A stretch of 64,000 bases of DNA from the human T2T-CHM13v2.0 reference genome, Homo sapiens. The translations under genes and the position numbers were made by a program. This document shows positions 500 through 62,915 of this stretch, one piece after another. The stretch is taken from assembly GCF_009914755.1 (NCBI RefSeq), contig NC_060930.1, one strand, 5' to 3'. The notes under the pieces were generated by a model. That model was not told where the DNA came from. It made no database searches and saw only the letters and a program-made list of their open reading frames with translations. Each line of letters starts with the position of its first letter. Within the stretch, counting starts at the first letter, position 1.

Positions 500-1500
500 A
501 AAGTGGCAAGAAAAACTTTTGTTGAGGAAATGACTTTAGAGTAAGTATGTAAAAGAGTGAAAGAGCTAGCATATGTCTGTGGAAAAAGAATCCTAAATAG
601 GGGTCACAGCAAGTACAAAAACCCTGAGATGAGAATGTGTTTGGCAAGTTGGAGATAAAGGAAGAAGGCAGTGTGACTAGCATAGTGAGCAGAAGGGCAG
701 AGTCATAGGATATGAGGTCAGAGAGATAAGAAAAGCCAGATCATGGAGGGGCCTTCAGGTCATGGCAAGGACTTGGGTTTTATTATGCACATTTTATTTT
801 TCCTTTTCTTTTTGACCTTTACTCAGATACTCAGATAGCAAAATCATTCATGTAGCCTCAACAAGAATTTGTACTGTTACAGTAGGAATGAGAAAGGAGA
901 AGAAAATTGTACTTTTTTGGTAGGGAGGGGAAGAAGAAGGAGGATGTTCTGAGCTAGTAATAAAACGGGAATGCTCAAAGAAAGAAAGTTAATATTAGGC
1001 TTGATTTTGTTTCTTTCACTTTCAAGCAGGCTCATGAGTATCAAAAGGAAAGATTCTGAGGGGAGTAAAACACTGTTTATGCTATTAACAGCTCTAGAAA
1101 GAAAATAGAGGTAGAGACTGAAGACCACTGCCCCATCTCAGGAGGGGCTGAAGGATTTAGGAAGGAAGAGGGGGTGGTTGGGTGTGACCGAAGTTTTGTG
1201 TGGAGGGGAAGTCGAGGTGGAAGTGTAGAGGGGGCATGTGCTGATGGAGAAGTGGAAGTCTGCAGTAGAGGCAGCAAGGCTGAATACCTTTGGTAGACAT
1301 TGACAGGGAACATATGCAAGCCAGTGTCTGTGGAATTGTTGGGGATGGACCCTACATCTACTCTGCCTGCTCCCTGGGGGATTATCCATCAGAAGGACAT
1401 TCATATGTGCCCTGAGACTTTGCTGTACTGTCTGCACCACCACCATGCACGGATCCCTACAAGAACCTATAAAATAGCTCCCGTTCACAGCCTGGACTCT
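500..1500 (-). mobile_element. Ancient L2 fragments
   Basis: Purine-rich L2-like text, e.g. gaggtcagagagataag...ccagatcatggaggggcctt...gtcatggcaaggacttgggtttt; boundaries approximate. Confidence 0.55.
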
Positions 1501-5821: not shown

Positions 5822-5956
5822 CAATAATGTCATATCAAGTGAGCTTAGATCCTTGTTCTCAGTCTTTGTTTTACAGATAAAATATATAATTATTCTTGTT
5901 ACTGCATGACTTTGAAGAACTGGTTCCTTTTATTCTCCAATAACTGATGATGAACT
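5822..5956 (-). pseudogene. PAN-like pseudo-exon (boundaries uncertain)
   Basis: Peptide GE*KEPVLQSHAVTRIIIYFICKTK follows the GQDM-ending exon; implied intron is only 56 nt. Confidence 0.3.
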
Positions 5957-6012
5957 CTGTATGTATACTGTTGTGTCTCAGTTCCCCTAAAATTGGGAGC
6001 GAGGAGTTTAGC

Positions 6013-6308
6013 TTGGTTATTCATGTCTTGCCCCTTCAACCCATTTGGTACCTGAGACCACACATCTTCTGGTAAGACCTCCGTGACCTGACCCTGCCTT
6101 GGGAGAAGCAACTTGATTAAATTGAGATAAATCATTAAAAGCAAACAAAAAAAAATTGTCCTGTTGGAATAATCAATTACTCATGAGGATGGTTCTAGAA
6201 TTGGTCTATTGGAAGTAAACCAGACATTAACTGTTCACATCTAGGTCTTAGGTTGGAGAAAATAATGAACCTCTATTCTTCACATTTCTTTGTGACCTTT
6301 GAGTACTG
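6013..6308 (-). pseudogene. PAN-like pseudo-exon, paralog of 7977-8269
   Basis: Strong acceptor ttttgttttcattttctatag; QYSKVTKKCEE*RFIIFSN/LDVNS*CLVYF...RQGQVTEVLPEDVWSQVPNGLKGQDMNNQ (the last part is in ORF 5899..6144). Confidence 0.75.
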
Positions 6309-6945
6309 CTATAGAAAATGAAAACAAAACAAAACAAGAAAAGTCCAGGATAACTACTACTTGTTAAATTTATAGTTAACCACTTCACTTGGACCATGAA
6401 CACTGCTGGACAATGTTTTCTTTTTCCCAAGCGAGTTTATCCTTCTGCTCTTCATTGTGGTGATTTCAAGACTAGTGAATTTACCTCAAATATCTGACTT
6501 CAGCTATATTTCCTCTACCTCTCATATCCTTTTCTTCAGTGGATCCTCATAGAGAAAAGAGAAACCCTCAGATAGAAACTTCTGCAGTATTCCAGCACCA
6601 AATTTGCACACTGCTATGCAATATTACCTTTCTGCCTTTCCTGCCATTTTAATGGAAAAGGTTTGCCTCCTCCTCTCTCAGGCTACTCCCCCTATCTCTG
6701 CACTGGGTTTGAGAATTATCCTCCCTTTTTTCCAGTGTCATTGATTTCTAAGCAAATGCACTCTTGTGATCTTCCTCTTAATTCTCAGGCTACTTCAGTA
6801 TTTTTTGTTGACTTCTGCTTTTCTATCCATTCACAGAAATGCTATTTTCCATTAGGGCTCCATATTCTACCCCATTGTCCCCAGGTAATCTTTTTTTTTT
6901 TTTCACACTAATTGTGTAATTTTCTAAGGCGATCTATTAGTTTTA

Positions 6946-7394: not shown

Positions 7395-7450
<56 letters not shown>
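7395..7450. repeat. (TG)n microsatellite abutting the 3' end of the U2 retrocopy
   Basis: About 28 TG units. Confidence 0.95.
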
Positions 7451-7635
7451 GTGTACCATTCCTGGAGGCACTGCAATACTAGGTAGATGTATGGAATGGA
7501 AGGAGCAAGCTTCTATTCCATCTCCCTGCTCAAAAATACATTTAATATATTGTCCTTGAATAGAGGACATATCAGATTTTAAGCTGTTAAGAACAGATAC
7601 CACATTTGATCTTAGCTAAAAGGCCAAGAAGAAAT
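7450..7635 (-). pseudogene. Full-length U2 snRNA pseudogene (retrocopy)
   Basis: Reverse complement aligns end to end with U2 (ATCGCTTCTCGGCCTTTTGGCTAAGATCAAGTGTAGTATCTGTTCTT...GGAACGGTGCACC) with many substitutions; the branch-point recognition GTAGTA reads GTGGTA. Confidence 0.95.
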
Positions 7636-7976
7636 TATTTATATTGTGAAACCTCTCAATTAAAAATTTCTAATTCAAATCTTTCTTGTGATCTCCAGTC
7701 ATATAAACCTAAGAGAATGATTTATACATCCAGTTTGCTGGCTCACAAGGAATCTCAACTTCAACTTATCCAAACCTGCATTTATTAAGTTCTCTTCCCA
7801 ATCCCCACTAAATTACCTGCTCCTTACCCTATGTTTTTTTCTATTTAGTATCTGACTTGCTTAAGTCAGCAAAATGGAATATCTTTCTTTACTACTTCTA
7901 CTTATCTCCAGCCTCCATCATGTTAACTTGAGGGTGTGTGTGTGTGTTCGCGTGTTTGTCGAGGTGGGTATCTAAC

Positions 7977-8269
7977 CTGATCACTCAGGTCGTGTCCCTT
8001 CACTCAGTTTGGTAGCTGAAACCAAATGTCTTCAAACAAGTTCTCTGTGACCTGATACTGCCTTCAGGGAGGAGCAACTTGATTAAATTTAGATGAGTCT
8101 TTAAAAACAACAAAACTTTTCTTACCCTTTTAGAACAACTCAGTTATTCAAGAGAATGAGTTTAGAATTGATCTTGTTGAAATAAGCCAAATCTTTCCTC
8201 TTCGCATCTAAGTCGGAGAAAGTAATAGACATGCATGCTTCACATTTCTTCCTAAGCCTCTGAACACTG
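7977..8269 (-). pseudogene. PAN-like pseudo-exon, paralog of 6013-6308
   Basis: Acceptor tttctgcag, donor CAG|GTTAGA; QCSEA/RKKCEACMSITFSDLDAKRKDLAYF...RQYQVTENLFEDIWFQLPN*VKGHDLSDQ. Confidence 0.75.
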
Positions 8270-8937
8270 CTGCAGAAATTTATAACAATTCTTAAATTTC
8301 TTAAGCCTGTGGAAGAGGCAGTGCCACTGCCTTAGTTCTTGTCACTTCCTCAATTCCAGATGCATTTGATGTCTCTCTACCTTTTTACTTTTCATTTCAA
8401 TTTGTAAGTTCCAGTTTAGGTGTCTGTTTTCTTCTGCTAATTTGGCTAGTTTGTGATCTTCTTTGGTTAGAGCTGTAATTATCCATCTTTGTCTTTCTAG
8501 TTAGTAACTTGTTTCAGTGCCCGGAGCTCATAAGGGAGTAAATAACTGAACAGTTGAATGACCCCCCTAATATTCAGCCACCCTGAACTCCACCTCCTCC
8601 CTGCCTTTTGAAAGACTGCCTGTGTATCTCATCTCTAGGTCCCAAGTATATTTAGTCTAAATTATCTGGATGCTTGCTAAAAGTAGGATTTCCTATTACA
8701 CAGATTCTACTATCTCTCAGCTCAGTCTTGCTAACATGTACATTTTGGTCTTCCAGACTCTCAAACTGAGTGCCCATGACCTGTGGAACTATGTGTGTGA
8801 TTACAAGAACATAAATGTCCTGTGTTATGTCGGTTTAGGCCACTTTTTAGTTCTTTGAGACAAAATATATATATTAAAACAGGAAAATATGCAGCTAAAG
8901 CAAAATTTGGGGTAATTTTAAAAGCAAAGTATAAGAT

Positions 8938-46987: not shown

Positions 46988-47279
46988 CTATGGGAAGGAA
47001 CAAGCACTCAGAAATGCAGGGTGGTCAGCCAATTTGCATAATATGAATTCAATAGGTTTAAAATTTTTTATTTAACATTTATTTAGAGAAGAAGCTGTTA
47101 GTCTCATGGGGGCAGGGTAGGGTAGGTTAAAGCCAGTGATGGGGCCTCAGCTCTGCTCTGCAAAACCTACTTTACAAATTAAAGCTCCTCTTTTAAGTTG
47201 GACCCACCCTCTGACAGAGACAGTTTAATGACCATCTGTTTTTATTCAAAATACTCCTTGGGGGAAGGAGGCATCTCAC

Positions 47280-47452
47280 CTCACACTCCAAGCGGCTTAT
47301 CAAAGTATTTCCTTCCAACCAAAGACAAACATGTTCCCTGAGAAGAGAGCTGGTAGATATTTTCTTTCTTCATTTTTTTACATGTCCTGGAATGGTTCAG
47401 CAACCTAATAATGTTTTATCAATCCTCGTGAGCACTTCTCTCAGATCCTGGC
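47280..47452 (-). pseudogene. 3' part of the PAN-like exon split by HERV-H
   Basis: GQDLREVLTRIDKTLLGC*TIPGHVKK*RK/IYQLSSQGTCLSLVGRKYFD; donor GAG|GTGAGA. Confidence 0.75.
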
Positions 47453-47902
47453 TTTCATGCATGTCCGTGTGAAGAGACCACCAAACAGGCTTTGTGTGAG
47501 CAACATGGCTGTTTATTTCACCTGGGTGCAGGCGGGCTGAGTCCGAAGAGAGTCAGCGAAGGGAGATAAGGGTGGAGCCATTTCATAGGATTCGGGTAGG
47601 TAAAGGAAAATTACAGTCAAAGAGGGTTTATTCTCTGGCGGGCAGGAGTGGGGGTCACAAAGTGCTCAGTGGGGGTGCTTTTGAGCCAGGATGAGCCAGG
47701 AAAAGGACTTTCACAAGGTAATGTCATCACTTAAGGCAAGGACCGGCCATTTACACTTCTTTTGTGGTGGAATGTCATCAGTTAAGGTGGGGCAGGGCAT
47801 ATTCACTTCTTTTGTGATTCTTCAGTTACTTCAGGCCATCTGGGTGTATACGTGCAAGTCACAGGGGATGTGATGGCTTGGCTTGGGCTCAGAGGCCTGA
47901 CA
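47453..47902 (-). mobile_element. 3' LTR7
   Basis: TGTCAGGCC...CATGAAA on minus; AATAAA at 47512-47517; TATA mutated to TATGAAA; PPT AATATAAGAAGGCAGGAA adjacent. Confidence 0.97.
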
Positions 47903-49224
47903 TTCCTGCCTTCTTATATTAATAAGAAAAATAAAACAAAATGGTGTTGAAGTGTTGGGGCGGTGAAAATTTTTGGGGGGTGGTACGGAGAGAGAATGGG
48001 CGATGTTTCTCAGGGCTGCTTCAAGTGGGATTAGGGGCGGCGTGGGAACCTAGAGTGGGAGAGATTAAGCTGAAGGGAGGTCTTGTGGTAAGGGGTGATA
48101 TTGTGGGGATGTTAGAAGAAACATTTGTCTTATAGAATGATTGGTGATGGCCTGGATACGGTTTTGGATGAATTGAGAAACTAAATGGAATAACAGAAGG
48201 AGAAAAACAGGTATAAAAGATCGAAGAATTGGGACGACTCAGGACATCTGATTAGACAGTGCCTAAAGAGATTCAGCATAGTCCTGCCAGCAAAGATTAT
48301 TTATTTACTTCAAGAGTTAAGAGTGGCAGTTTGGGGATAGCACCAGGAGATATCAGCTGTGATGGCTTGGAAAAACAGTGTAAACTGGCAGTGTAAACAA
48401 GAGCAGGGCATGTATGAGTAGTTGAGAACAGTGAATAGGAGTATGACTAGACAGAAGATAGTAGGGATGACAAGTTTTTTGGGGGCACAGTCTAACTTGG
48501 TCTGGTGTCTAGAATGAGACTGGGGCCTAATAAAAAGGAGCGTCTATACAGGAGCTCAAATGGGCTGTACCCTGCAGCATTCCAAGGACGGGCCTAAATT
48601 CTGAGAAGGGAAAGTGGTAAAAGTATTGTCCAGTCCTTTTTAAGTTGGTGGCTGAGCTTGGTGAGGTGTGTTTTTAAAAGACCTTTAGTCCATTCTACTT
48701 TTCTTGAAGACAGAGGACCGTAAGGGATATAAAGGTTTCACTGAATACTAAGAGCCTGAAAAACTGCTTGGCTGATTTGACTAATAAAGGCTCATCTGTT
48801 ATCAGACTGTATTGAGGTGGGAAGGCTAAACTGAGGAATTATGTCTGACAGAAGGGAAGAAATGACTGTGGTGGCCTTCTCAGACCCTGTAGGAAAGGCC
48901 TCTACCTATCCAGTGAAAGTATCTAACTAGACTAAGAGGTATTTTAGTTATCCGACTCAGGGCATGTTGAGTAAAGCTAATTTGCCAGTCCTGGGTGGGG
49001 CAAATCCTCGAGCTTGATGTGTAGGGAAGGGAGGGGGCCTGAATAATCCCTGAGGAGTAGTAGAATAGCAGATGGAACACTGAGAAGTTATTTCCTTGAG
49101 GATAGATTTCCACGATGGAAAGGAAATGAGAGGTTCTGAGAGGCGGGCTAGTGGCTTGTTCTATAGCATAACCTGCCTTTGGTGGTGTGTGTCGATTAGG
49201 CCTGGTGGAATCGCCATCACTAAA

Positions 49225-50663
49225 TCAAGCGTGATCAGGGTGAGGAACAGGAAAGAAGGAAATTTGGGGAAATGGGGTGAATGTCAGGTGGATCAGAGAG
49301 ATACAGTCATGGGGGTCAGGTGTGGTATCAGGAATAATGTGGGAGACCGGATTGAAGTCTGGGCCAGGAACAACGGTAATTGTGGGAGACTCAACAAAGA
49401 GTGAGTATAGCTGAAGGAGCCGGGGAGCAGAAAGTATATGCATCAGGTATGAGGAAGCAAATAGATTTTGGAAGTTATGAGAACTATAGAGAGTGAGTTG
49501 AACATAGTTTGTGATTTTTAGGGCCTCTAAAAGTATTAAAGCAGCAGCAGCCACTGCACGCAGACATGAGGGCTAGGCTAAAACAGTAAGGTCAAGTTGT
49601 TTGGACAGAAAGGCTAAAGGGTGTGGTCCTGGCTCCTGTGTAAGAATTCAGACCATGCTAACCATGCCTAGGAAGGAAAGGAGTTGTTGTTTTGTAGAAG
49701 GTGCTGGGGTTTGAGAGATCAGTCGGACACGATTGGCAGGGAGAGCACGTGTGTTTTTATGAGAATTATGCCGAGATAGGTAACAGATGAGGAAGAAATT
49801 TGGGCTTGATTGAAGTAATGGGGGCTGTCTGTGAAGCTTTGCAGCAGTACAGCCTAGGTAATTTGCTGAGCTTGATGGGTGTCAGGGTCAGTCCAAGTGA
49901 AAGTGAAGAGAGGCTGGTATTAAGGGTGCAAAGGAATAGTAAAGAAAGCATGTTTGAGATCTAGAAGAGAATAATGGGTTATAGAGGCAGGTATTGAGGA
50001 TAGGAGAGTATATGGGTTTGGCACCACGGGGTGGATAGGCAAAACAATTTGGTTGATAAGGTGCAGATCCTGAACTAACTTGTAAGGCTTGTCTGGTTTT
50101 AGGACAGGTAAAATGGGGGAATTGTAAGGAGAGTTTATAGGCTTTAAAAGGCCATGCTGTAGCAGGCGAGTGATAACAGGCTTTAATCTTTTTAAAGCGT
50201 GCTGCGGGATGGGATATTGGCATTGAGTGGGGTAAGGGTGATTAGGTTTTAATGAGATGGTAAGGGGTGCATGATCGGTCGCCAAGGAGGGAGTAGAGGT
50301 ATCTTATACTTGTGGGTTAAGGGGGGTGGATACAAGAGGAGGATGCAAAGGAGGCTTTGGATTGGGAAGAAGGGCGGCAATGAGATATAGCTGTAGTCCA
50401 GGAATAGTCAGGGAAGCAGATAATTTAGTTAAAGTGTCTCAGCCTAATAAGGGAACTGGGCAGGTGGGGATAACTAAAAAGGAGTGCTTAAAAGAGTATT
50501 GTCTAAGTTGGCACCAGAGTTGGGGAGTTTTAAGAGGTTTAGAAGCCTGGCCGTCAATACCCACAACAGTTATGGAGGCAAGGGAAACAGGCCCTTGAAA
50601 AGAAGGTAATGTGGAGTGGGTAGCCTCCGTATTGATTAAGAAGGGGACGGGCTTACCTTCCAC
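49225..50663 (-). pseudogene. pol: HERV-H pro-pol remnants (protease, N-terminal RT, downstream pol fragments)
   Basis: FLINTEATHS (degenerate DTGA), SPYNSPILPVLKPD..LVQDL, LDLKHAFFTIPLHP; broken frames. Confidence 0.9.
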
Positions 50664-50843
50664 TGTGAGAGTTACCTGAAGCTTGGCGTCCGTGATGGTC
50701 TAGGGGGCTTCCAAGGCGATCGGGCAGTGTCAGTCTTCAGCTGCTAAGCCGAGAAGATCTGGGAAGGAGTCAGTCAGAGAGCCTTGGGCCAGAGTTCCAG
50801 GGGCTCTGGGAGTGGCTGCCAGGTGAGTTGAACAGTCCGATTT

Positions 50844-51762
50844 TCAGTGGGGTCCCACAGAGATGGGACGTGGCTTAGGAGGAATCCCGGGCTGCGGGCA
50901 TTCCTTGGCCCAGAGGCCAGATTTCCGGCACATGTAGCAAGCTCCTGTGGGAGGAGGTTCTAGAGGAATGCCTGGCCGCTGCGGTTCAGGTGTTTGCAAG
51001 TTCTTGTGTGCTGGAGATGTGGCTGGGGTTTGTCTCACAGTGGAGGCAAGGAATTGCAACTTTTTTCTATCATTGTACACCTTGAAGGTGAGGTTAATTA
51101 AATCCTGTTGTGGGGTTTGAGGGCCAGAATTTAATTTTTGGAGTTTTATTTAATGTCGGGAGCAGATTGGGTAATAAAATGTATTTTGAGAATAAGACGG
51201 CCTTTTGACTTTTTAGGGTCTAGGGCTGTAAAGTGTCTCAGGGTTGCTGCCAAACAAGTCATGAACTGGGCTGGATTTTTATATTTGATGAAAAAGAGCC
51301 TAAACGCTATCCGATTTGGGATAAAGAAAAAGGAGCATTAACCTTGACTATGCCTTTGGCTCCAGCCACCTTTTTAAGAGTAAATTGCTGGGCAGGTGGG
51401 GGAGGGCTAGTCAAGAACGAAACTGTAAGCCAGACCAGGTGTGAGGAGGGGAGGCGATAAAAAGATTATAGGGTGGAGGAGCGGAGGCTGAGGAAGCATT
51501 GGGACCTAGCTAGGCCTGGCGAGGAGGGGAGAGGTCAGATGGGTCTGTAGAAAAGGAAGATTAGAAAGACTCATCGATGCTTGGGTTTGGGACTTAGGGG
51601 ACAGGCGGGAGGGAAAGAAGGAAGATTTGGGATGATTTGCACTGGGCACAGAGACAAGGAAGGGACTGATGTGTAAAAGAATGCCTGGACGTCAGGCACC
51701 TCAGACTGTTTGCCTATTTTAGGACAAGAATTATTTAGATCTTGCAGGATGGAAAAATTCAA
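50844..51762 (-). pseudogene. gag: HERV-H gag remnants
   Basis: Degenerate zinc knuckle CYMCRKSGLWAKEC; NFSILQDL fragment. Confidence 0.85.
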
Positions 51763-52039
51763 AGTGCCATTTTCTGGCTGTTTGGAACTACAGTCGAGTT
51801 TGTATTGGGGTCAAGTGGCATTGCAGAAGAAAATAAGGCATTTAGGTTTTAGGTCAGTTGTGAGTTGAAGAGATTTTAAGTTTTTGAGAACACAGGCCAA
51901 GGGAGTAGAAGGAGGAATGGAGGGTGGAAGGTTGCCTATAGTGAAGGAAGCAAGCCTAGAGAAGAGAGTAGAGAAATGGAGGGAAGGGGTTTGGGGGGTC
52001 TTCCCTTCCAGAAAAGTGGGAAAAGGGGTTAGGGCACAG

Positions 52040-52450
52040 AGATAAGAGGTCAGGGCATGGAAATAAGGGGTTGGGGCATGGAAATAAGGGGTCAGGGCAT
52101 GGAAATAAGGGATTGGGGCACAGAGATACGAGGTTGGGGTGCGGAAATAAGGGATTGGGGGTTCTTGCCCCCTAGAAAAGCGGGACTTGCCGCTAAGGGT
52201 GAAAGAGAAGGGGTTGAGGGGTACTTGCCCCTCCCCCAGAAAAGCGGGACTTGCCACTAAGGGTGAAGGAGAAGGGGTTGAGGTGTACTTGCCCCTCACC
52301 CAGAAAAGCGGGACTTGCCACTAAGGGTGAAGGAGAAGGGGTTGAGGGGTACTTGCCCCTGCCCCAGGAAAGGAGAGAAGGGGTAGAGACAAGGAGAGAA
52401 GGGGTTGGGGTACTTGCCTCTTCCCCAGAAAGGCGGGACTTGCTGCTAAG
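52040..52450. repeat. Tandem repeats of the HERV-H leader (~21-bp and ~59-bp units)
   Basis: Repeated ggcatggaaataagggg and agaaaagcgggacttgcc.ctaagggtgaaggagaaggggttgag. Confidence 0.85.
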
Positions 52451-52732
52451 CGTGAAGGACCAAGGCAGGCGTCCCTGCGTGGTCTGACACCTTTGAAACG
52501 TGGGTGAATAATCAGAGAGGCATCCCTGCAATGATTAAACACCAAGGGAAGCCTGCCTTCCCAGTCTGTGACTGGCGCCGGAGTTTTGGGTCCACAGATA
52601 AAACGTGTCTCCTTTGTCTCTCCCAGAAAATGAAAGGAATTGAAATTAAGAGAAGGGAGAGATTGAAGAGTGGAAAGAAGAAAGTGGTTGAGGGACAGTG
52701 AGAGAGGTTGGAGAAGAGAGTAAGAAGAGGCC

Positions 52733-52741
52733 ACCTACCTG
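52733..52741 (-). other. HERV-H major splice donor CAG|GTAGGT
   Basis: Lies at the usual leader position about 145 nt downstream of the 5' LTR (TTTTAAATCAG|GT). Confidence 0.8.
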
Positions 52742-52864
52742 ATTTAAAATTGGTGAGATGTTCCTTGGGCTGGTCAGTCTGAGGACCTGAGGTCGTAGGT
52801 GGATCTTTCTCATGGAGCAAAGAACAAGAGGACAGGGGATTGATCTCCCAGGGGAGTTCCCCCA

Positions 52865-52882
52865 ATCCGAGTCACGGCGCCA
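52865..52882 (-). other. Primer-binding site for tRNA-His
   Basis: TGGCGCCGTGACTCGGAT, one mismatch to the complement of the tRNA-His 3' end. Confidence 0.95.
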
Positions 52883-52884
52883 AA

Positions 52885-53334
52885 TTTCATGCACGTCTGT
52901 GTGAAGAGACCACCAAACAGGCTTTGTGTGAGCAACATGGCTATTTATTTCACCTGGGTGCAGGCAGGTGAAAATAAGAGAGTCAGCGAAAGGGAGATAA
53001 GGGTGGGGCTGTTTTATAGGATTTGGGTGGGTAAAGGAAAATTACAGTCAAAGGGGGTTTGTTCTCTCGCGGGCAGGAGTAGGGGTCGCAAGGTGCTCAG
53101 TGGGGGTGCTTTTTGAGCCAGGATGAGCCAGGAAAAGGACTTTCACAAGGTAATGTCATCACTTAAGGCAAGGACTGGCCATTTACACTTCTTTTGTGGT
53201 GGAATGTCATCAATTAAGGTGGGCCAGGGCATACTCACTTCTTTTGTGATTCTTCAGTTTCTTCAGGCCATCTGGGCATATACGTGCAAGTCACAGGGGA
53301 TGTGATGGCTTGGCTTGGGCTCAGAGGCCTGACA
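52885..53334 (-). promoter_or_regulatory. 5' LTR7 promoter, LTR7up-like
   Basis: Intact TATAAAA at 53012-53018; two ACAAAAGA motifs at 53190-53197 and 53240-53247. Confidence 0.9.
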
Positions 53335-53395
53335 CTGGCCTTGATTAAGATTTAGGGGAAGACATGCTGTCTGCAGTGCACTCTACTTAATCTTC
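53335..53395 (-). pseudogene. 5' part of the PAN-like exon split by HERV-H
   Basis: Acceptor ATTGCAG; SALQTACLPLNLNQGQ runs in frame through the TSD into DLREV. Confidence 0.7.
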
Positions 53396-58537: not shown

Positions 58538-61470
58538 TGTATCATACAGGTTTTTTGAAGCCCTAATATCTGAGACAGGTCTGTTAATTTTGAAAGTTTA
58601 TTTTGCTAGAGTTGAGGACTTGCATGCATGACACAGCCTCAGAAGGTCCTGATGACATGTGCCCAAGGTAGTTGGGGCACAGCTTGGTTTCATACGTTAT
58701 AGGGAGACATGAGACATCAATCAATATATGTAAGATGTACCTTGGTTTCATACAGAAAGTCCAGATAACTAGAAGCAGGAGGGGGCTTCCATGTCACAGG
58801 TAGGTGAGAGGCAAATGGTTGCATTCTTTTGATTTTCTTATTAGCTTTTTCAAAGGAGGCAATCAGATATGCATTTATCTCAGTGAGCAGAGGGATGACT
58901 TTGAATAGAATAAGTCAACAGTCAAAAGCTGTTGGCCCTGTTTCAGTCAAGGAAACTTTTATTTTGAGCTACTGACAGCTTTTAACAATTAAGTAAAATA
59001 TATTCTTGTGAACAAAATTTGGAACATATTTGTTTCTCTCTACCTGATTTCTCCAGAATTTGGAAACTATTTGTGAGTATTCTTAACTTATGGCAATACA
59101 GTTATTTGCATAAGAGTCTCTTTTCATTTGAACAAAATTTGGTTCACAGGAGTGTACTTTACTTCATTGTTAAAGCTCTTAATAGCTCAAAAGAAAAGTT
59201 TCCTTGACCCTAAGCAGTTCCCAGCTTGACTTTTCCCTTTAGCTTTGTGATTTGGGGGCCCCAATATTTATTTTCCTTTCACATTTTCCCCGTTTTGTTT
59301 TTAAAATCTTTGGAGAAAGTATTTTAGAAGAAAATGAATTTCTGGTCTCAGCTTTTGTCTGATCTCTCATGGCTAGGATGGTTTATTCCTAATCAGGTAG
59401 GTCCTGAGTTATTAGAAAAGCTCATTTTAGCAGCTTGTGAAGTCTCATATCCTATGAAGACAAAATAGGGAAAGGAAGGGAGAAAAACAACAACAAAAGA
59501 ACAATCCTGGAAAATTGATATAGGCTACATTACTCTGAAGTCCATACATCAGCAGGCAGGTATGAAAGTGGCTTATGTATGTAACTAGGTTGCTGTTATT
59601 TTCTTCTAAAGTTTAAGTTGTCTAGCTTCAGTTTGCAGGGCTTTAATAAAGCACAGCTTAATTTTCAGTGATTTCAAATTAGGAAAAATGGAGGAAAAAG
59701 GAAAAGAAAGAAGAAAAAAATGAAAATATTATTTTGGAGTTATGTAGCTGGAAAAATTAGAATTCAGTCCAAACTGTAGAAAACAATAAAATTGGAAAAA
59801 CATTAGGCAAGACTAGAATCTAACAACAGGTGTACTACAGTTTTTGAAACATAATTTTTCTCCCTGCAGTTTCCCATTTTTACTAAAGACAAATCATGTT
59901 AGGACCAATTTGCTTTATTATACTTGGCCAGATGATTTGTATAAAGTGCAGCAAGACTAATTACTTTTCACATAGGCTTTTTAGACTGGCTTTTATGGAA
60001 CTTTGTTCCATAGAAGGAATCTCAGATAAGACTTTCTTAAAACCAAGCCCAGCCATGGATTTGTACCATCAAATACCTATGAGTTGGGTGAATTCCCCTC
60101 CTCTTGAGGTCCCAAGATAACTTGGGGCTCCTGAACCTGTCAGAAAGTGGCATTCTTTACTTACCACAGGTCAGGAACCCTGTACAGGGACTGTGTAGAC
60201 AAGGTATGAGGCCAGTTTTCCCACGGGGCTTTTATTGGCCGTATAAGTCAAATTTAATTTCTTAAAGGAAAACACACTATTTCAGTCAAAGCCTTGGTAA
60301 AATAAGCACTTTCTCCAATTGTGTCTTGTTACAAATGAAAATAGACTCTTATTACATTTATGAACATAACCATATTGCCATAAATTAAGAATAATCACAA
60401 ATAGTTTCTAAATTCTAGAGAAATGAGGTAGAGAGAAATAAATATGTTCCAAATTTTGTTCACAGAAGTATACTTTATTTAATTGTTAAAAGCTGTAAAC
60501 AGCTCAAAAGAAAGGTTTCCTTGACTCTGAAAAATAAAACAAAGAATCAGCAACATTTTAAGCAAAAGGTCAAAAAGATTACTTTAATCTTCTATTAGTT
60601 CAGTCCACACAGTTAATTCCTGTTCTGCTTGATATTCATGAACATTTCAGCTATCTGTGAGTCTTGAAAGTTTTTCCTCTGTTCTGATGTCACAATCTCC
60701 AATCTTATCAGAAACCTACATTCAAGAGCACCTGTTAAAGTTTTATAGCTGATTATAAAACCACCTTCTAAAGAGGACCAAAACAAGACAATTATCTATG
60801 GATGACAAAAAGTTTTAGGGCAGCCACAGTCAAAGACGCTATTGACAAGGAAATTTGTTACCTCTGTGGCACACAATAATTTAATATAACAATTATAATT
60901 ATTACTGATAAAATACAGTAAGTCATATCAGAATTATAGGAGTTTCTCATAATTTTGGAACACATACCAATAACATATATATACAAATACAGCCCAAAGA
61001 AAGCCAAACACCATTTCATATTTGACAATGCTTCCTGTATAATTTGTATAACAAATAAACTAAATATGTCATTTTTGGACTTTAGGGAACCTACTATTTT
61101 AAAGGATTAATTAGGTCAAAAAAGTATATGATTTATAATTTGATTTTGGAAAGTTTGTCAAATATCAAAGGTTTAAACACTTGCTATCACAAAATAGGAT
61201 CACAGGTCATTGTCAAATAAGTCATTGATTTAACCAAAGTGATCACTCAAGGATTTCAAAAAAAGCAAAAGCCTTCATTCTTTGAGATAGGAGACTTAAT
61301 TTTCCAAACAATAAGCCCTAATAAAAACATCATGAAGCCAATTAAATTTGTGTTTCAAAATTTTATATAAACAATCTATAAAATTTTAATCTTGACCATA
61401 AGATATAACTTCCATAAGCCTTTTATAACCTTTGTAAGCTTTATTAAGGTGTTGGTTAATACTTCTTAAT
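58538..61470 (-). mobile_element. MER4A-type 3' LTR (~58538-59283) plus MER4-group internal sequence
   Basis: aatatctgagacaggtc...gacatgtgcccaagg...atttattttcctttcaca, followed by a PPT-like ttttccccg and AT-rich MER4-int text. Confidence 0.85.
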
Positions 61471-61476
61471 ATTAAC

Positions 61477-62915
61477 CAGTGCCCGATTAGCCAGCAGCAG
61501 AGACCAACACTAAGCCCTCGATAAGGCACTATTCCTTGGGGTGATCAGCCAGCTACCTGGTGGCAGGGTCATTATATTTGACCTCTTCCAACATGGAACA
61601 GGCAGAGGTTTGTCCTCACTGGAATAGACACTTACTTTGGATATGGGTTTGCCTATCCTGCATGCAATGCTTCTTCCAAGACTATCATCTGTGGACTCAT
61701 GGAATGCCTTATCCACCATCATGGTATTCCACACAGCATGTACTCTGACCAAGGCACTCACTTTACAGCTAAAGAAGTGCAGCAGTGGGCTCATGCTCAT
61801 GGAATTCACTGGTCTTACCACATTCCCCGTCATCCTGAAGAGGCTGGATTGATAGAATGGTGGAATGGACTTTTAAAGTCACAATTACAATATCAGCTAG
61901 GTGACAACACTTTGCAAGCCTGGGGCAAAGTTTTCCCGAAGGCCATGTATGCTCTGAGTCAGTGTCCAACATATGGTACTGTTTCTCCCAAAGCCAGGAT
62001 TCACAGGTTCAGAAATCAAGGGGTGCAAGTGGAAGTGGAACCACTCACCATCACCCCTAGTGATCCACTAGCAAAATTTTTGCTTCTTGTTCCCATGACA
62101 TTAAATTCTGCTGGCCTGAAGGTCTTAAATCCAGAGGAAGGAATGCTGCCACCAGGAGACACAACAACAATTCCATCAAACTAGAAGTTAAGATCGCCAC
62201 CTGGACACTTTGGGCTTCTCCTATCTTTAAGTCAACAGGCTAAGAAGGTAGTTACAGTGTTGGCTGGGGTGATTGACCCAGACTATCAAGATGAAATCAG
62301 TCTACTACTCCATCCAGAGGTAAGGAAGAGTATGCATGGAATATGAGAGATCTGTTAGGGCATCTCTTAGCATTACCATGTCCTGTGATTAAGGTTGATG
62401 GGAAACTACAACAGCCCCATCCAGGCAGGACTACAAATGGCCCAGACCCCTCACTAATGAGTTTGGGTCACTCCAACAGGAAAAAAATAAGACCTGCTGT
62501 GGTGCTTGCTGAAGGCAAAGGGAATACAGAATGGGTAATAGAAAAAAGGTACTAATCAATATCAGCTACGATCACGTGACCAGCTGCTGAAATGAGGACT
62601 ATAATTGTCATGAGTATTTCCTCCTTCTTTTGTTAAAAACATGTTTGTTTATGTACACACTTGTACTAAGAAAATATCTTCATTTTATTTTCTTCTCCTT
62701 TATCATGTGACATGTGATTAATTGACTTTGTATCAGCATGTAAGTGTTGTTAACTTTATGTAATATTATTTGGGTTGGGGATTGGTGCATTTCCAGTTGT
62801 ATGAAGGATAGTTGTATTATGTTAGGTGTAATTATGACCTTATTGTTGTCTTTATTTGAAGATTGTGTATGATCTCAGGAGATGTGTGTGGGTTCAGGTT
62901 GACAAGGGGTGGACT
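61477..62915 (+). mobile_element. HERV-L internal 3' part: integrase and dUTPase remnants
   Basis: HGIPHSMYSDQGTHFT...HPEEAGLIEWWNGLLK (integrase core); dUTPase-like gctggggtgattgacccagactatcaa; PPT gacaaggggtggact. Confidence 0.9.

What the first reader, a model, noticed from the sequence alone, without database searches (positions are those of the whole stretch)
47280..53395. HERV-H integrated inside a fossil exon; removing it restores the reading frame
Seen: deleting 47453-53334 and one CTGGC copy gives AG|...CTT AAT CAA GGC CAG GAT CTG AGA GAA GTG... = LNQGQDLREVLTRIDKTLLGC*TIPGHVKK*...IYQLSSQGTCLSL...|GTGAGA. The TSD falls in the G-Q codons of a GQDL motif that matches GQDM and GHDL in the 6-kb and 8-kb exons. 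The LTRs differ by about 22 substitutions plus small indels (~5%, counted by eye), far less than the decay of the host exons. Inference: the gene was long dead before the insertion.
Basis: partly seen in the sequence, partly recalled or inferred. Interest (0 to 1): 0.7.

Follow-up and report, generated by a model that had tools for sequence, protein, structure and literature searches.

The report
Catalogued HERV-H provirus, no fossil exon
This is an already catalogued, broken human endogenous retrovirus that likely inserted 10-15 million years ago into what is most likely ordinary non-coding DNA; the 'fossil exon' said to surround it scores no better than random DNA nearby.

Summary
The provirus is real: 47453-53334, minus strand, two 450-bp LTRs, 5-bp target duplication, 22 substitutions in 432 LTR sites plus one mutation cluster. 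It is listed in Carter et al. 2022 (PMC8912925, Supplementary file 1) as a full LTR7up1/HERV-H with hESC promoter marks. The fossil exon is not supported. Removing the insertion gives the quoted peptide, but the open stretch is 32 codons (2489 of 3000 random points do as well). The 229-nt 'exon' needs 3 disablements (540 of 576 random windows need 3 or fewer), and its acceptor has a median pyrimidine tract. Similarity to the 6-kb/8-kb pair is at background by DNA (598 and 126 of 948 windows score as well); by protein it is nominally 2-17%, depending on the window chosen. That pair is a real two-copy 71%-identical duplication without coding-type substitution bias and without a vertebrate protein relative. 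Orthologous empty sites could not be read. Side finding: a likely template switch, unique to this 5' LTR, is predicted to part-bury its poly(A) signal.

The parts
47453..53334 (-). HERV-H provirus, LTR7up1 subfamily, 5882 bp, coding-dead, no env match
   Evidence: Carter 2022 Supplementary files 1, 2 and 6
52885..53334 (-). 5' LTR (450 bp); keeps the TATA box, a KLF-type GC box and both SOX-type motifs
47453..47902 (-). 3' LTR (450 bp); differs from the 5' LTR within the TATA and GC boxes; lies under the RefSeq enhancer 47396-48048
   Evidence: hub annotation
47448..47452 (.). target-site duplication, left copy
53335..53339 (.). target-site duplication, right copy
52865..52882 (-). primer-binding-site-like stretch after the 5' LTR (tRNA-His type by recall; not tested against a tRNA)
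50409..50675 (-). protease remnant (Pfam RVP, E 3.4e-8)
49806..50099 (-). reverse-transcriptase remnant (Pfam RVT_1, E 7e-4, below the curated cut-off)
48717..48947 (-). integrase remnant (Pfam rve, E 2.4e-7, just below the curated cut-off)
52966..52976 (-). mutation cluster in the 5' LTR that reads as an inverted copy of nearby downstream sequence (likely one template switch)
6009..6327 (.). 6-kb copy of an old two-copy local duplication
7973..8288 (.). 8-kb copy of the same duplication (71% identical)

Best explanation
A HERV-H provirus of the LTR7up1 subfamily sits at 47453-53334 between two copies of a 5-bp target site; it likely integrated about 10-15 million years ago into DNA that was most likely non-coding, and the GQDL 'exon' is most likely a chance reading. 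Shown: bounds, target duplication, LTR differences, broken pro-pol remnants, catalogue entry, background-level exon statistics. From established retroviral biology: integrase makes a staggered cut and repair duplicates 5 bp, so taking out the provirus and one copy restores the pre-insertion sequence whatever it was, and every frame reads through the joint. Inferred: age (from a recalled clock rate and the subfamily's published age range); present role as an hESC-marked promoter/enhancer (published ChIP and GRO-seq calls, not tested here); non-coding status of the target (from negative tests, without orthologues).
For: Bounds, duplication, LTR alignment. Catalogue row chr6:121620422-121626300 (hg38), 7up1, minus strand, with a matching LTR sequence. 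Clock: 22/432 (95% CI 3.2-7.7%) gives 11.6 Myr (7.3-17.5) at 2.2e-9/site/yr; 13/414 non-CpG-type differences give 15.7 Myr (8.4-26.8) at 1e-9 (rates recalled). Carter section 6: 178 of 208 7up1 elements found in gorilla, 14 of 208 in orangutan. Host site: 32 open codons, matched by 2489 of 3000 random points; 3 disablements, 540 of 576 random windows need 3 or fewer; acceptor pyrimidine fraction 0.47 = median of 18,624 YAG sites; DNA score against the pair reached by 598 and 126 of 948 random windows; no hit of the pair's DNA profile at the joint among 38 hits to E 100; no protein relative.
Against: With the window narrowed to 6 residues either side of the joint, only 70 of 3000 random points match the pair's GQDM/GHDL block as well (150 at 10 residues, 505 at 22); window and frame were chosen after seeing the motif. 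By eye, 13 of 18 bases around the motif match the 8-kb copy and all 5 differences are at third positions, 3 of them changing the residue (sequences). The donor-like end is a good match, and the best DNA alignment to the 8-kb copy spans both ends, though it does not pair the motifs. Short, decayed queries make the protein searches weak, and no other mammal's DNA could be read.
Confidence: 0.88

Rival explanations
1. One reading: the provirus split an exon of a long-dead repeat-exon gene whose other exons are the 6-kb and 8-kb copies.
For: Motif at the joint, nominal 70-505 of 3000 depending on window; third-position pattern over 18 bases; all three motifs on the minus strand; good donor-like site at 47279.
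Against: Background openness, acceptor and DNA similarity; rank 2019 of 38,400 translated windows; motif not colinear with the donor; no protein relative; 0 of 150 minus-strand open stretches match Pfam.
Confidence: 0.05
2. The 6-kb/8-kb pair are fossil exons of a lost gene, but the HERV-H target is unrelated to them.
For: Similarity starts at an AG with a pyrimidine tract (0.79 in the 6-kb copy) and stops near a GT in the 8-kb copy; the 8-kb copy can be read as two phase-compatible pieces around a 64-nt gap with 2 stops; the GQDM/GHDL frame has the lowest dN/dS of its block, 0.34.
Against: Column shuffles reach the best frame's pN/pS in 966 of 3000 and its BLOSUM score in 314 of 3000; the other three blocks are no better; the best-conserved 40 columns lie in the supposed intron; the profile search found only the human ORF itself and two tandem-repeat artefacts.
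Confidence: 0.1
3. The 6-kb/8-kb pair are two remnants of an ancient transposable element or a duplicated regulatory element, not part of any gene. Compatible with the best explanation.
For: Even identity across blocks: 31/41, 54/75, 53/72, 66/92; sharp ends at about 310 bp.
Against: Only these two copies found genome-wide by BLAST and by a 27-base pattern with up to 3 mismatches, which argues against a high-copy element; no repeat library could be searched.
Confidence: 0.5

Closest known systems
LTR7up1/HERV-H locus chr6:121620422-121626300 (hg38) in Carter et al. 2022, PMC8912925
   Same: Same locus: position, minus strand, length about 5.88 kb and diagnostic LTR bases agree. Listed calls: top-seventh GRO-seq 1, RNA 0, chimeric transcript 0, NANOG, KLF4, MED1, FOXA1, FOXP1, TCF4, KAP1, ZNF534, ZNF90 1, OCT4 and SOX2 0, H3K4me3, H3K9me3, H3K27ac 1.
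   Different: Nothing of kind. One LTR base differs between the hg38 row and this assembly. I did not see the mutation cluster or any host exon discussed in the passages read.
Common env-less HERV-H proviruses (review PMC12228294, passages)
   Same: Non-coding, transcriptionally used element lacking an intact env; here 52, 55 and 72 stops per frame, longest open stretch 169 codons.
   Different: This copy is not scored as making a chimeric transcript and is not among the dimorphic loci seen in Thomas 2018.
Unitary pseudogenes interrupted by retroelements (general class, recalled)
   Same: A mobile element inside a former exon can be dated and read across.
   Different: Such cases are defined by an intact orthologue elsewhere; none was found here.
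HIV-1 poly(A) hairpin (recalled, not looked up)
   Same: An R-region stem that part-hides AAUAAA is predicted for this 5' LTR.
   Different: Here it is a private post-insertion mutation of one LTR, predicted only, with no evidence of function.

Membership tests
HERV-H provirus | Two direct LTRs flanked by a short target-site duplication | tested here: met
   450-bp LTRs, 5-bp duplication
HERV-H provirus | Retroviral pro-pol remnants in order between the LTRs | tested here: met
   RVP, RVT_1, rve in order on the minus strand; two of three below Pfam's cut-off; no gag or env family at E 0.01
HERV-H provirus | tRNA-His primer-binding site | not tested
   PBS-like stretch seen; match to tRNA-His is from recall
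LTR7up1 subfamily | 8-bp SOX2/3-motif insertion in block 2b | tested here: met
   Motif at LTR positions 88 and 138 in both LTRs; definition from PMC8912925 passages; also shared with 7u1
LTR7up1 subfamily | Placement in the 7up1 clade of the LTR7 tree | not tested
   Taken from Carter Supplementary files 1 and 2; no tree built here
Fossil exon of a unitary pseudogene | Intact homologous protein in another species or a paralogue | tested here: inconclusive
   None found; the word-index database holds vertebrate proteins (GJA1 control), but the queries are short and the host site was not run in the full HMMER library
Fossil exon of a unitary pseudogene | Reading frame more open than background | tested here: not met
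Fossil exon of a unitary pseudogene | Acceptor with a polypyrimidine tract, and a donor | tested here: not met
   Acceptor at the median of YAG sites; the donor-like site is good
Fossil exon of a unitary pseudogene | Homology to the proposed sister exons at 6 and 8 kb | tested here: not met
   protein match nominal 2-17% only
Fossil exon of a unitary pseudogene | Syntenic conservation with coding-type constraint across mammals | not testable with these tools
   No other vertebrate genome is held (header: no relatives)

The most novel reading that the evidence does not exclude
An unannotated multi-exon gene, lost so early that no intact relative turns up in vertebrate protein sets, once ran across at least 47 kb downstream of GJA1; the 6-kb, 8-kb and HERV-H-split stretches are its repeated exons, and the provirus puts a lower bound on its death.
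Probability: 0.05. Interest if true: 0.5.

Novelty: already known. Interest (0 to 1): 0.1.

Why it matters
As it stands it matters little: one of 208 catalogued LTR7up1 insertions, in an intergenic stretch about 170 kb past GJA1. If the exon were real it would mark an unrecorded gene loss and allow loss and insertion to be ordered in time. Two smaller points are of use: LTR-LTR dating should count the 11-base cluster as one event (6.0% falls to 5.1%), and the predicted hairpin over the 5' poly(A) signal can be checked in existing hESC 3'-end data.

Tried and rejected
Translated self-comparison of the window linked the host site to neither copy in the part of the output shown (its middle was cut). 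Pfam on 7 exon pieces gave only DUF1103 at E 0.19; PDB gave Cren7 at E 0.4 or worse: rejected as noise. A PAN/apple, WSC or ricin-B reading of the peptides (recalled resemblance) got no Pfam support. P0123 and P0124 (E 1e-8 and 1e-7) were rejected as five weak stretches summed over tandem repeats; P0122 is the 6-kb human ORF letter for letter. Host flanks are single-copy by BLAST, so no common repeat explains them, though very old repeats can be missed. Rfam found only U2 at 7446-7635. The ESM Atlas and earlier scan findings were not available. The locus was not found by coordinate in the supplements of PMC6629862 (2 files), PMC9483895 (4 files) or PMC6298018 (10 files), so no locus-specific ape presence data were seen. 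Paper searches without a relevant result: 'unitary pseudogene'+GJA1+HSF2 (0), HERV-H+GJA1+LTR7 (0), unitary pseudogenes/gene loss/primate/6q22/HSF2 (1, unrelated listing), 6q22.31+HERV-H (3 listings, not opened). Only 30 kb right of the window could be read, against 200 kb on the left. Plus-strand open stretches and 19 of 169 minus-strand ones were not scanned with Pfam.
Full report
Observation. Local alignment gives LTRs at 47453-47902 and 52885-53334, 450 bp each, with the same five bases at 47448-47452 and 53335-53339. It lies on the minus strand: a primer-binding-site-like stretch follows the right-hand LTR and a purine tract precedes the left-hand one (tRNA-His type is recalled, not tested). 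Protease, reverse-transcriptase and integrase remnants follow in order (Pfam RVP E 3.4e-8, RVT_1 7e-4, rve 2.4e-7; no gag or env family at E 0.01). The 4982-bp interior has 52, 55 and 72 stops in its three frames.

It is catalogued. From recalled hg38 coordinates of nearby genes I searched the supplements of Carter et al. 2022 (PMC8912925; seen: passages, section 6, rows of supplementary files 1, 2, 5, 6). File 1 lists chr6:121620422-121626300, 7up1, minus strand, top-seventh GRO-seq, NANOG/KLF4/MED1/FOXA1/FOXP1/TCF4/KAP1/ZNF534/ZNF90 positive, OCT4/SOX2 negative, no RNA call, no chimeric transcript; file 2 calls it full length. The LTR row in file 6 carries the same private bases as this window's 5' LTR. 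Both LTRs hold the SOX-type motif that marks 7up and 7u1.

Age. The LTRs differ at 27 substitutions and 4 one-base gaps in 448 columns (K2P 0.063). Five substitutions and two gaps form one cluster; outside it 22 of 432 sites differ (5.1%, 95% CI 3.2-7.7%), 9 of them CpG-type by a loose context rule. With recalled rates this gives 11.6 Myr (7.3-17.5) or, on non-CpG sites, 15.7 Myr (8.4-26.8). Carter's lift-over puts most 7up1 insertions at about 10-14 Mya, 178 of 208 in gorilla and 14 of 208 in orangutan; their branch-length summary says 4-10 Mya. The best unrelated LTRs in the genome are 93-95% identical to this 5' LTR (40 of 2556 candidates scored), as close as its own partner. No locus-specific ape data were found.

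The proposed exon. Taking out a provirus and one target copy restores the pre-insertion DNA whatever it was, so read-through at the joint is no evidence in itself. The empty site does translate as quoted, but the last peptide is in another frame. The stop-free stretch over the joint is 32 codons against a median of 52 (2489 of 3000 random points as long or longer). The acceptor's pyrimidine fraction, 0.47, is the median of 18,624 YAG sites. The donor-like site is a good one.

Homology to the 6-kb and 8-kb copies. These two are truly related: 71% over about 310 bp, E 3e-33, and the only two copies found genome-wide. The host site is not detectably a third: a DNA profile of the pair gives no hit at the joint among 38 hits to E 100; alignment scores of 80 and 96 are reached by 598 and 126 of 948 random windows, while the pair scores 351; in translation the site ranks 2019 of 38,400 windows, and G[QH]D[LM] occurs 6 times in the region, 3 at unrelated places. 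Against my reading: with only 6 residues either side of the joint, 70 of 3000 random points score as well (150 at 10, 505 at 22), and 13 of 18 bases around the motif match the 8-kb copy with all differences at third positions (by eye). Both figures use a window and frame picked after seeing the motif. The motif also sits at different distances from the donor-like ends, and the best DNA alignment does not pair the motifs.

Are the two copies exons? Their similarity starts at an AG and ends near a GT, and the GQDM/GHDL frame has dN/dS 0.34. After allowing for the choice among six frames, shuffles match that pN/pS in 966 of 3000 and the BLOSUM score in 314 of 3000; the other three blocks give 773, 1878 and 2112 of 3000. 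The best-conserved 40 columns (34 identical) fall in the would-be intron. Protein searches: none at E 10 in the word-index database for the 6-kb ORF or the host site (proteins longer than the query only), though it holds 4254 GJA1 relatives from many vertebrates. A profile of both copies against 1.84 billion representatives found 3 proteins: the human ORF itself and two tandem-repeat artefacts. No human paralogue appeared (one E 6 hit). None of 150 minus-strand open stretches of 46 or more residues (of 169 listed) matched Pfam at E 0.01. These negatives are weakened by short queries and by the lack of any other mammal's DNA.

Mechanism. Shown: an env-less, coding-dead HERV-H with a 5-bp target duplication. 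Established: integrase-mediated insertion. Published for this locus: hESC promoter marks together with KAP1 and H3K9me3. Inferred: insertion in the great-ape or African-ape ancestor into non-coding DNA; the GQDL reading is chance.

Side finding. The cluster at 52966-52976 reads as an inverted copy of sequence about 9 bases downstream, the pattern of a template switch (recalled mechanism; listings only). The strand folds with z -2.99 (2 of 200 shuffles) against -0.81 for the 3' LTR. The 37-base stretch occurs once in the genome at up to 3 mismatches, and the hg38 row shows the same loss. As RNA from an assumed start, the first four bases of AAUAAA are predicted paired at 0.26-0.88 in the 5' LTR and 0.01-0.02 in the 3' LTR. 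Function is untested; one search (4 listings, not opened) showed nothing on it by title.

Literature seen. PMC8912925 as above; PMC12228294 passages; PMC6298018 passages and supplement search (this locus not among the listed dimorphic loci); PMC6629862 and PMC9483895 supplement searches only. No paper on a lost gene here was found; the library lacks most subscription journals, bioRxiv supplements were closed, and the store of supplements gave no answer, so files held only there were not listed.

Verdict. Provirus: already known. Fossil exon: not supported. Interest 0.1.

Noticed in passing
window 52966-52976 (5' LTR, minus strand): Mutation cluster that reads as an inverted copy of nearby sequence, unique in the genome; predicted to part-pair the 5' LTR poly(A) signal.
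   Followed up: partly
window 47453-47902: The 3' LTR differs from the 5' LTR in its TATA and KLF-type boxes, yet it is the one under the RefSeq enhancer 47396-48048.
   Followed up: no
window 53340-53362: A more pyrimidine-rich acceptor-like site (0.74; 8% of YAG sites score as high, though this one is AAG) ends exactly at the right target-site copy.
   Followed up: partly
window 6009-6327 and 7973-8288: Old two-copy local duplication, 71% identical, sharp ends, no other copy found; origin unexplained.
   Followed up: yes
window 5902-6135: A 78-residue ORF in the 6-kb copy is held letter for letter as a predicted protein (P0122) with no relatives.
   Followed up: partly
window 58920-59200 and 60297-60551: Inverted pair, 88% complementary over 169 bases, 1.2 kb apart.
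   Followed up: no
window 837-982 and 1726-1862: Weak local direct similarity.
   Followed up: no
window 61582-62181 (+): 200-codon stop-free stretch with weak similarity to the provirus's integrase region, likely part of another, older ERV.
   Followed up: no
window 52033-52170: Short tandem repeat-like run inside the provirus leader region (seen in the translations).
   Followed up: no
window 7446-7635 (-): U2 snRNA pseudogene RNU2-8P confirmed by Rfam, 137.6 bits.
   Followed up: yes
L024 (G000:C6:122753392-122755427, -): LINE-1 ORF2-like open stretches of 314 and 371 codons just left of the window (identity by recall).
   Followed up: no
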